Assembly: GCA_964016885.1 (NCBI GenBank)
Contig: OZ024740.1
Span: forward strand, 263,810,001 to 263,874,000
From: Eledone cirrhosa
Taxonomy: Eukaryota
DNA: 64,000 nt
Direction of reading: 5' to 3'
Under the pieces are notes generated by a model, which was not told the DNA's origin, made no database searches, and saw only the letters and a program-made list of their open reading frames with translations. This document shows positions 32,751 to 33,887 of the stretch, piece after piece. A program made the position numbers and the translations under genes. Position 1 is the stretch's first letter. Every line of letters starts with the position of its first letter.

Positions 32751-33887
32751 AATAAATTAACGACCCAGAACATATATGATCAAGGTTTAGCAAATAAGAA
32801 GTTTTAAAATAAATTTTAAAAAGTTCACTATACCTGCTATAATTACCCTTACCGTGCGGTTTCAAGTCTCAAAATACATGGATAATCCATGCGGAAAATT
32901 CATTGAGAAGAAGACTTTCGTCAGAGGGATCTTCTCACTCGGAGAATATAAAATTCCCGAGTTCAAATCACGAACTGGCGCCATACAGAACTCTTCCCGG
33001 ATGAGACTGTATGATGAAGAAACAATTTTGTCTAGTGCCGTGTGTAAAGATAGAAGGCAGGGGCGGAAAGGTCAATGTACTGCCACTAGAAATAGCAGCA
33101 GTTAAAACGACCAAAATGTTATCTCGACCAGGAGAGATTAATAATAATAAAGTATGTTTTCCTACATGCAAAATGCATATAGGGACACATGTATTATCCA
33201 ACCGTATGCCAATGTGGTTCTATGGCAGGTTAATAAATTAACGAGCAATAAACATATATAATAATGGTTTATCAAATAAGAAAACGTTTTAAAATAAATT
33301 TTTTAAAGTTCTCTATACCTGCTATAATTACCCTTACCGCGCAGTTTCAAGTCTCAAAACTTTAAAACATTTTAAAACTTTTTCTTATTTGCTAAACCTT
33401 GATTATATAAGTTCTGGCTCCTTAATTTATTAACCTGCCATAGAACCACATTGGCACACGGTTGGATAATACATGTGTCCCTATATGTATTTTGAATGTA
33501 GGAAAACATACTTTATTATTATTAATCTCCCCTGGTCGAGATAATATTTTGGTCGATTTAACTTCTGCTATTTCTAGTGGCAGTACATTGACCTTTCCGC
33601 CCCTGCCTTCCACCTTTACACACGGCACTAGACAAAATTGTTTCTTCATCATACACTTTCATCTGGGAACAATTCTGTATGGCGCCAGTCGTGATTTTAA
33701 CACGGACATTTTATATTCTTCGAGTGAGAAAAACCCTCTGACGAAAGTCTTCTTCTCAATGGATTTCCGCATGGATTATCCATTTATTTTGAGACTTGAA
33801 ACCGCGCGGTAAGGGTAATTATAGCAGGTATAGTGAACTTTTTAAATTTTATTTTAAAACATTTTCTTATTTGCTAAACCTTGATTA
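32751..33887. mobile_element. Head-to-head pair of terminally redundant ~482-nt hammerhead monomers in (TA)n
   Basis: 32751 onward repeats at 33232 (minus unit); 33374 onward repeats at 33857 (plus unit); the two units are inverse homologues. Confidence 0.88.
33733..33816 (+). ncRNA. Type I hammerhead ribozyme (mirror copy 32845-32928, minus)
   Basis: Stem I accct/agggt; CTGACGA 33738-44; stem II aagtct/agactt; GAAAC 33798-802; palindromic ACCGCGCGGT; GTA site 33809-11. Confidence 0.88.

What the first reader, a model, noticed from the sequence alone, without database searches (positions are those of the whole stretch)
32751..33887. Head-to-head, terminally redundant 482-nt hammerhead monomers: candidate circular-RNA retrozyme
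Seen: a minus copy of about 1.25 units and a plus copy of about 1.1 units start at different phases of the same ~482-nt unit. The hammerhead has an intact core and a palindromic stem III (ACCGCGCGGT). There is no credible ORF. Established: permuted, greater-than-unit-length copies are expected from reverse transcription of circular or multimeric retrozyme RNA. This is the best-preserved ribozyme in the window.
Basis: partly seen in the sequence, partly recalled or inferred. Interest (0 to 1): 0.75.

Follow-up and report, generated by a model that had tools for sequence, protein, structure and literature searches.

The report
Penelope-copied hammerhead retrozyme, two-armed insertion
This is one aged copy of a non-coding 482-base repeat with a predicted self-cutting RNA motif, present about 3,000 times in this animal genome, and its ends and its younger relatives indicate that it was likely pasted in by a Penelope-type jumping-gene enzyme reading round a small RNA circle, a route proposed for such repeats but not yet shown.

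Summary
Two head-to-head arms (610 and 523 nt) of a 482-nt non-coding unit each carry a type I hammerhead core with a long stem II; the fold is backed by compensatory changes. The genome has 2,967 exact matches to the ribozyme's 3' half. The phases are not random: 5' ends vary, but 3' ends are fixed in (TA)n, and two-armed insertions pair two sites 108-110 nt apart (30 of 41). That is the Penelope 'tail' footprint. A Hydra-clade Penelope family here has the same footprint, a 108-nt tail and similar bulged stems just beyond both ends, but no sequence homology. The unit is not an ordinary pseudo-LTR (3 of 245 loci abut an ORF). A young sister subfamily forms arrays of up to 10 units that are uniform within an insertion and differ between insertions, as a circular template predicts. 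Cleavage, expression and circles are untested. The window's own copy is old (arms 93.5% identical), with an atypical left end. Verdict: new member of the metazoan non-LTR retrozymes. The scan reported the same architecture for other families of this genome.

The parts
32750..33359 (-). Left arm: unit positions u419-482, u1-482, u1-64 (u1 = window 33369); 1.26 units; 3' end joins the (TA)n tract. Its end at u64 is atypical (family arms end at u41 or about u151)
   Evidence: the exact u64-TA junction pattern has 1 match in the genome, at this locus; u58-64 and u144-150 are both TTTATTA (sequence), so loss of u65-151 by microhomology is inferred
32843..32930 (-). Full type I hammerhead core of the left arm; stem III loop CA; predicted cut 32850|32849
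33330..33359 (-). 3' half of a second hammerhead at the 5' start of the left arm (GAAA, stem III with one C>T change, TA); predicted cut 33335|33334, 485 nt from the other
33360..33368 (.). 9-nt filler at the head-to-head junction
33369..33891 (+). Right arm: u1-482 plus u1-41; 1.08 units; ends at the family's main 3' end followed by a short TA run
33412..33445 (+). Bulged stem 1 (TTC-hairpin-2 nt-GAA), starting about 3 nt beyond family end 1 (u41); candidate reverse-transcription start signal (inferred)
   Evidence: 93 of 113 passes; lead from notes e1-8671399, e1-8811940
33527..33540 (+). Bulged stem 2 (CTC-hairpin-2 nt-GAG), about 8 nt beyond family end 2 (about u151); candidate second start signal (inferred)
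   Evidence: strict form in 62 of 113 passes; looser CTC..NN GAG in 91 of 112
33733..33816 (+). Type I hammerhead with extended stem II and palindromic stem III; predicted cut 33811|33812
32546..32574 (+). Short duplicate of u36-64 facing the TA tract; secondary rearrangement (inferred)
32631..32659 (-). Short duplicate of u36-64 inside the TA tract; secondary rearrangement (inferred)
32573..32751 (.). (TA)n target tract
36728..37754 (+). Separate insertion: 5'-truncated Hydra-type Penelope element ('PLE-A': GIY-YIG end, 3' UTR, decayed long-stem-II hammerhead at about 37594-37705, TA end). Its family is the candidate mobiliser; it is not part of the retrozyme insertion

Best explanation
The locus is one aged, two-armed insertion of a non-coding 482-nt hammerhead-bearing repeat (a non-LTR retrozyme) that was likely copied into a (TA)n tract by the reverse transcriptase-endonuclease of a Hydra-type Penelope element, probably from a circular monomer RNA. 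SHOWN: unit, copy number, conserved hammerhead fold, fixed paired 3' ends in (TA)n, variable 5' ends, the same footprint in a co-resident Hydra family, and long uniform arrays in a young sister subfamily. INFERRED: (1) multimer loci are transcribed and the hammerhead cuts after u443 to release monomers; (2) monomers are ligated to circles; (3) the Penelope protein nicks both strands of (TA)n and starts reverse transcription inside the RNA at two sites 108-110 nt apart, each just 5' of a bulged stem, one site per DNA end; (4) each cDNA runs back through the ligated junction, for up to 10 rounds, and the two cDNAs are joined head-to-head. Odds by step: Penelope-mobilised non-autonomous retrozyme 0.92; Hydra clade as mobiliser 0.7; circle as main template 0.7; the bulged stems as start signals 0.6.
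For: Footprint: 77 of 84 hammerhead-selected loci have a block ending at u37-41; 72 of 79 such blocks are followed by at least two TA units; 98 5' starts fall at 83 different positions. 41 head-to-head junctions in 178 loci, 30 pairing u41 with about u151 and 1 pairing u41 with u41. In the young subfamily 22 of 32 two-armed loci pair r80 with r188 (108 nt). PLE-A has a 108-nt tail, opposed arms using end 1 and end 2 (or near it) in 4 of 10 loci, a long-stem-II hammerhead, bulged stems 5 nt beyond both ends, the Hydra motifs RWK, DKT, CxCX5C, CxxC, CxH, and young copies 94-99% identical. Bulged stems after both retrozyme ends: 0 of 1000 shuffles. In vitro, a Penelope RT starts at two internal RNA sites that delimit the tail and extends both target strands (PMC11167929). 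Ribozyme: core letters identical among 6 subfamily majorities while 15 of 52 stem II positions differ; 93.7% of cells paired, two-sided changes at 4 of 22 pairs in stems I and II, against 17-56% paired for slid controls. Circle: 91 arm passages run through the cut site, 9 stop near it; arrays of 10.1, 8.8, 7.0 and 5.8 units; in 32 youngest loci 35 variants are in all passes of an insertion (11 seen in both arms), 4 in some, 24 in one; five all-pass variants occur in a single insertion, one in 7 of 7 passes; 85 junction crossings, none with an indel, 2 with a substitution. Logic (inference): an internal start loses 110-482 nt per linear generation, so a family with 72-92% diverged subfamilies needs a length-restoring step.
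Against: No RNA data: cleavage, expression and circles are untested. In vitro, hammerhead cleavage was dispensable and uncut RNA was the main Penelope template (PMC11167929); only 1 of 9 Xenopus retrozyme dimers cleaved (preprint 10.64898/2026.07.22.740005). The window's two arms share 0 private variants and are no closer to each other than to 23 of 90 other passes, so one template is not shown for this locus; its left end (u64) is unique. In the older samples no arm exceeded about 2.2 units. All-pass variants could be inherited from unsampled parent arrays (56 of 156 youngest matches were not listed). The young loci were chosen from dimer and haplotype pattern lists, which favours multimers. 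PLE-A has no sequence homology to the unit (E>=0.55; tail alignment below shuffles), and another family (PLE-B) has the same stem, so the partner is not pinned. Stem 2 passes the strict test in only 62 of 113 passes and fails it in the youngest monomer. The free fold of the isolated hammerhead is not unusual (z -1.3); stem III probability about 0.3. Covariation shuffles ignore relatedness, and the count of pairs with two-sided change was not above shuffles (145 of 500).
Confidence: 0.68

Rival explanations
1. Same Penelope machinery, but the template is linear: uncut read-through multimers, or cut monomers joined by template jumps. The hammerhead is a processing aid or a passenger.
For: Uncut RNA was the dominant substrate in vitro. 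9 of about 100 arm passages stop at u438-446 against 2.9 expected (p 0.003), so some templates had a cut 5' end; by eye only about 4-6 of these fit the exact cut. Most older insertions are under 1.7 units.
Against: Linear copying with internal starts only shortens the element. Arrays of 6-10 units carry insertion-specific haplotypes in every pass and both arms; 85 junction crossings have no indels; no insertion is mixed at r15 or r436 (0 of 54 and 0 of 52).
Confidence: 0.22
2. The unit is the orphaned pseudo-LTR of an autonomous Penelope element; the copies are ordinary 5'-truncated ends.
For: The footprint (5' truncation, inverted arm, tail, TA target) is that of Penelope elements. L038 abuts the end of a Penelope ORF.
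Against: Copies longer than one unit run into another unit, not an ORF. 3 of 245 loci have a Penelope ORF fragment directly 5' on the same strand, at different ORF positions, two of them across a TA-rich spacer; 19 of 19 other PLE-B copies lack the unit; 555 adjacent hammerhead pairs 455-480 nt apart. Descent from a pseudo-LTR long ago is not excluded.
Confidence: 0.04
3. Arrays arise at the DNA level (slippage, unequal exchange, fold-back in TA tracts) from short insertions; no rolling reverse transcription.
For: TA-mediated rearrangement is visible at this locus (two short u36-64 duplicates). 4 variants occur in some but not all passes.
Against: Both outer ends of long arrays sit on the two fixed start sites; arms on opposite strands share haplotypes; arrays are dispersed and nearly mutation-free.
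Confidence: 0.06

Closest known systems
Metazoan non-LTR retrozymes (Cervera and de la Pena 2020, PMC7229834; passages and parts 2 and 4 of 6 read. Li, Clavereau and Pollet 2026, 10.64898/2026.07.22.740005; parts 1-3 of 5 read)
   Same: Non-coding, low-GC tandem unit with one type I hammerhead; monomers to multimers; mobilisation by Penelope elements proposed there.
   Different: 53-nt stem II region; dispersed two-armed insertions with two fixed 3' ends in (TA)n, not described in the parts read; circles and cleavage were shown there for coral, mussel and axolotl but are untested here.
Hydra-clade Penelope-like elements, incl. Hydra-1_Obim (Craig et al. 2021, PMC8557442; passages, section 11 and supplement passages read)
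   Same: (TA)n target, partial tandems, inverted 5' arm, one-sided tail; the published Hydra-1_Obim hammerhead is also long (95 nt, File S2 row).
   Different: No ORF; tail 108-110 nt rather than the 30-40 nt quoted for Penelope elements; arrays up to 10 units.
Anolis Poseidon element in vitro (Frangieh et al. 2024, PMC11167929; parts 1-2 of 4 read)
   Same: Two internal reverse-transcription starts that delimit the tail; both target strands cut and extended; AT-rich target.
   Different: Autonomous; starts in an AC-rich stem-loop; linear uncut RNA was used, a circle was not tested in the parts read.
Minimal hammerheads of Penelope pseudo-LTRs (Cervera and de la Pena 2014, PMC4209133; parts 1-2 of 4 read)
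   Same: Short palindromic stem III suited to dimeric cleavage; circular template proposed to explain tandem copies.
   Different: Here stem III has 3 pairs plus A-U, and the commonest subfamilies have a non-palindromic ATT loop.
Non-autonomous Chlamys elements such as MRC1 (PMC8557442, passage)
   Same: Non-autonomous Penelope-type elements with multicopy head-to-tail insertions.
   Different: Those resemble their autonomous partner in sequence at the 3' end; none was found here.

Membership tests
Metazoan non-LTR retrozyme | Type I hammerhead in each unit | tested here: met
   core letters intact in 54 of 76 and 101 of 121 passes; Rfam does not score it
Metazoan non-LTR retrozyme | Short head-to-tail repeats of a few hundred bases | tested here: met
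   482-485 nt; 555 adjacent pairs; arrays to 10.1 units
Metazoan non-LTR retrozyme | No protein coding, GC below 50% | tested here: met
   no Pfam match for 3 frames; no match to PLE-A protein (E>=1.3); young monomer 191 of 483 G+C
Metazoan non-LTR retrozyme | No LTR, PBS or PPT | not tested
   no LTR-type structure seen in the block maps; PBS and PPT were not searched
Metazoan non-LTR retrozyme | Two consecutive units with complete hammerheads ('active' by Li et al.), at this locus | tested here: not met
   each arm has one complete core; met by other loci of the family
Metazoan non-LTR retrozyme | Self-cleavage of the RNA | not testable with these tools
   needs an in vitro assay
Metazoan non-LTR retrozyme | Expression as linear and circular monomers | not testable with these tools
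   no RNA run was available
Metazoan non-LTR retrozyme | Target-site duplication where present | tested here: inconclusive
   46 of 79 blocks have TA runs on the 5' side too; duplications cannot be read in (TA)n
Pseudo-LTR of an autonomous Penelope element | Attached to an RT-GIY-YIG ORF | tested here: not met
   3 of 245 loci, none recurrent
Penelope-type insertion footprint | 5' truncation, inverted 5' arm, tail on one arm, microsatellite target | tested here: met
   criteria from PMC8557442
Hydra clade (for the candidate partner PLE-A) | RWK, DKT, CxCX5C linker, CxxC and CxH, no GxKF/Y, (TA)n target | tested here: met
   by-eye likeness to the published Hydra alignment; Pfam and PDB do not recognise its RT
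Hydra clade (for the candidate partner PLE-A) | Placement in the Hydra clade on an RT tree | not tested
   no reference Hydra sequences were held as data

The most novel reading that the evidence does not exclude
The family is a ribozyme RNA circle that hijacks a Hydra-type Penelope enzyme by structure alone: with no sequence homology it mimics two bulged start stems about 108 nt apart, two reverse transcriptases roll round one circle from the two ends of a cut (TA)n, and each array records one RNA molecule, including site-specific A-to-I edits (A>G at r436 arose about 5 times and at r15 3 times, always in every pass).
Probability: 0.3. Interest if true: 0.75.

Novelty: new member of a known kind. 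Interest (0 to 1): 0.48.

Why it matters
How animal retrozymes spread, and whether Penelope-type enzymes copy RNA circles, are proposed in the papers read but not shown there. This family supplies genomic evidence and a complete test kit: a recently active 483-nt monomer, a target, two start sites with candidate signals, and a co-resident young Hydra family with the same tail length. It also shows that Rfam misses long-stem-II hammerheads, here about 3,000 in one family. The window's copy itself is an old, probably inactive insertion, and the scan has noted the same architecture in several other families of this genome.

Tried and rejected
Rfam at gathering and E-value thresholds: no hammerhead. 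Sequencing runs: no RNA holder listed; three contig runs of one study were laid and hold many variant copies, which says nothing on RNA. Genome-wide A>G strand bias (lead from note e1-8803865): none in the older subfamilies (A>G 158/20619, T>C 226/27519, p 0.53) and none overall in the young one (20 vs 35); only two recurrent sites remain as a hint. PLE-B as parent: rejected. PLE-A as sequence parent: no homology. My first label 'Neptune' for PLE-A (recalled) was dropped after the motif test. Obligate palindromic stem III: rejected for the family. u64 as a third regular start site: rejected. One-template test on old insertions: arms and passes belong to one subfamily (mean distance 0.055-0.060 against median 0.12-0.13 to other loci) and share more private variants (8-17% against 1.5%), but the signal sits in a few loci and is absent at this one. 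The core count was off by one position and was redone. Eight duplicate loci were dropped before; four of the hits came from a query frame that contained the unit itself and a fifth likewise, and were discarded. Pfam and PDB gave no RT match for PLE-A; 49 unnamed full-length homologues exist. Literature searches listed no paper on cephalopod retrozymes or on two-armed retrozyme insertions; subscription papers are mostly outside this library, and the preprint's supplements could not be seen and may list related families.

Full report
OBSERVATION. The window holds two head-to-head arms of one unit: a minus arm 33359->32750 (610 nt, 1.26 units) and a plus arm 33369->33891 (523 nt, 1.08 units), 486 of 520 aligned bases identical, with a 9-nt filler. 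Unit positions (u) count from 33369. A motif scan of the whole window found type I hammerhead cores at 33732-33818 (+), 32930-32843 (-) and an unrelated one at 28688-28770. The plus core reads stem I ACCCT/AGGGT, CTGACGA, a 53-nt stem II region, GAAA, CCG-CG-CGG, TA, so the predicted cut is 33811|33812 (u443|444). Rfam scores no hammerhead. Three frames of the unit have no Pfam match. Two short u36-64 duplicates lie in the TA tract to the left.

THE FAMILY. The genome is 3.0 Gb; I did not determine the organism (other notes call it an octopus; my impression of a cephalopod is recalled). Exact patterns give 224 matches for the window's hammerhead type, 988 for the tail-TA junction, 2,967 for a general 3' half and 555 for adjacent pairs; reversed controls give 0. 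Copies are 72-92% identical to the window's unit and fall into at least six subfamilies. Core letters are the same in all six subfamily majorities while 15 of 52 stem II positions differ. On 18 hand-picked diverse copies 93.7% of cells pair, with two-sided changes at 4 of 22 pairs in stems I and II; slid controls pair 17-56%; the number of pairs with two-sided change is not above shuffles. Within subfamilies the hammerhead decays like the rest of the unit, as expected if selection acts on source RNAs only. Stem III loops are CG 72, TA 41, other 10 in the DNA- and hammerhead-selected loci, but ATT 52 of 71 in the tail-selected ones, so a palindrome is common but not required.

ENDS. In 84 loci chosen by the hammerhead pattern alone, 77 have a block ending at u37-41; 72 of 79 such blocks run into at least two TA units; 98 5' starts fall at 83 positions. 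Among 178 distinct loci there are 41 head-to-head junctions; 30 pair an arm ending at u41 with one ending near u151, and 1 pairs u41 with u41. This is the Penelope footprint: 5' truncation, partial tandems, an inverted 5' arm and a tail on one arm (PMC8557442; PMC3846280 passages). For an Anolis element the tail was shown to lie between two internal reverse-transcription starts, with both target strands cut and extended (PMC11167929). The window's insertion deviates: its left arm ends at u64, a junction found only here; u58-64 and u144-150 are the same 7-mer, so a microhomology loss of the tail is the simplest reading (inference).

NOT A PSEUDO-LTR. Copies longer than a unit continue into another unit. 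Of 245 loci, 3 have a Penelope ORF fragment directly 5' on the same strand, at different ORF positions; for the best case (L038) 19 of 19 other copies of that element lack the unit.

CANDIDATE MOBILISER. A GIY-YIG remnant at 36728-36967 (Pfam E 0.024) belongs to an abundant family, PLE-A (42,592 first-look candidates, frames to 779 aa). It has the listed Hydra motifs and resembles the published Hydra alignment by eye; Pfam and PDB do not recognise its RT and no tree was built. It ends in (TA)n at two sites 108 nt apart, has opposed arms using the two ends in 4 of 10 loci, a long-stem-II hammerhead and copies 94-99% identical. Following notes e1-8671399 and e1-8811940 I tested for a bulged stem (YTC-hairpin-2 nt-GAR). 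It starts at u44 and u159 in the retrozyme, 5 nt beyond both PLE-A ends and 9 nt beyond a PLE-B end; 0 of 1000 shuffles place it after both retrozyme ends; it is present in 93 of 113 (site 1) and 62 of 113 (site 2) passes and 0 of 151 and 0 of 174 control segments. The motif was defined with these examples in view, so the shuffle figure is generous, and the youngest monomer fails the strict form at site 2. There is no sequence homology between PLE-A and the unit. The clade is therefore likely, the exact partner open.

TEMPLATE. In 106 unselected arms, 91 passages run through the cut site and 9 stop at u438-446 (2.9 expected, p 0.003; by eye about 4-6 fit the exact cut). So most templates are continuous across the cut and a few had a cut 5' end. 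The older subfamilies, including the window's, are too diverged to show one template per insertion: arms and passes share a subfamily but the window's arms share no private variant. The dimer search exposed a young sister subfamily (483 nt, loop AT, 74% identical to the window's arm). In 66 loci, chosen from dimer and haplotype lists and thus biased to multimers, arms reach 10.1, 8.8, 7.0 and 5.8 units and 22 of 32 two-armed loci pair ends 108 nt apart. In the 32 youngest loci, 35 variants are in all passes of an insertion (11 seen in both arms), 4 in some and 24 in one; five all-pass variants are confined to one insertion, one in 7 of 7 passes. Of 85 junction crossings none has an indel. An internal start discards sequence 3' of it, so linear copying shortens the element by 110-482 nt per generation; a long-lived family needs a step that restores length and passes through a single monomer. 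A circle does both. Inheritance from unsampled uniform arrays (56 of 156 matches unlisted) or clean jumps between identical cut monomers remain possible, and uncut RNA sufficed in vitro for the Anolis element.

EDITING. No strand bias overall. The most homoplasic site in the young subfamily is A>G at r436 in stem II (5 gains, 2 losses by parsimony) and A>G at r15 arose 3 times in a UAG context (an ADAR preference, recalled); all 11 G-bearing cases are uniform across passes. This is a hint only; stem stabilisation or recombination could explain it.

COMPARISON AND VERDICT. It meets the sequence-testable features of metazoan non-LTR retrozymes (PMC7229834; preprint 10.64898/2026.07.22.740005), whose link to Penelope elements and circular templates is proposed there. 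Cleavage and circles are untested here. Five literature searches listed no paper on cephalopod retrozymes or two-armed retrozyme insertions. The scan's notes report the same architecture for 310-, 422-, 467- and 518-601-nt families of this genome; none matched this sequence. New member of a known kind, useful as a test system; the window's copy is an old, probably dead insertion. Interest 0.48.

Noticed in passing
window 36728-37754 (+): 5'-truncated Hydra-type Penelope copy (PLE-A family, 81% amino-acid identity to L073) with a decayed long-stem-II hammerhead, flanked by TA repeats.
   Followed up: yes
window 22753-24760 (+): Broken, near-complete Penelope-like ORF of another family (30-42% identity to PLE-A), with frameshifts and stops.
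   Followed up: no
window 4867-5100 (+): Another GIY-YIG-like fragment (41% to PLE-A).
   Followed up: no
window 28688-28770 (+), with related pieces at 27876-27973 and 28380-28508: An unrelated type I hammerhead with a 49-nt stem II region in what looks like another repeated, partly inverted element.
   Followed up: no
window about 27090 (-): Short hammerhead-like core (18-nt stem II region) from a relaxed scan.
   Followed up: no
L230, L231, L237, L239, L242, L247, L249: A distantly related clan of hammerhead repeats (one with a period near 476 nt) that shares bulged stem 1, a similar tail and TA ends; profile E 1e-8 to 1e-4 for four of them.
   Followed up: partly
G000:C1:149203500-149212800 (L269), L268, L349, L338: Young two-armed arrays of 10.1+1.9, 8.8+0.4, 7.0+0.4 and 5.8+0.2 units with near-identical passes: the best material for RNA tests.
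   Followed up: yes
young monomer positions r436 and r15 (L268, L270, L273, L276, L278, L279, L287, L350, L354, L356): Recurrent A>G at two sites on different haplotype backgrounds, uniform within each insertion; possible RNA-editing record.
   Followed up: partly
L138, L152, L154: PLE-B family has its own hammerhead, a TA end and a bulged stem 9 nt beyond it; a second end lies about 95 nt further by eye.
   Followed up: partly
L097:2368-3416, L172, L206, L209: Arms whose 5' end falls at or within two bases of the predicted cut site, as expected from run-off on a cut linear RNA.
   Followed up: partly
window 30518-31628: Three or four copies of a short interspersed repeat (families D11, D14, D17); SINE-like by recall.
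   Followed up: no
window 35384-35643: 141-bp tandem repeat, 1.8 copies.
   Followed up: no
window about 30090-30290: 200-base assembly gap (N run).
   Followed up: no
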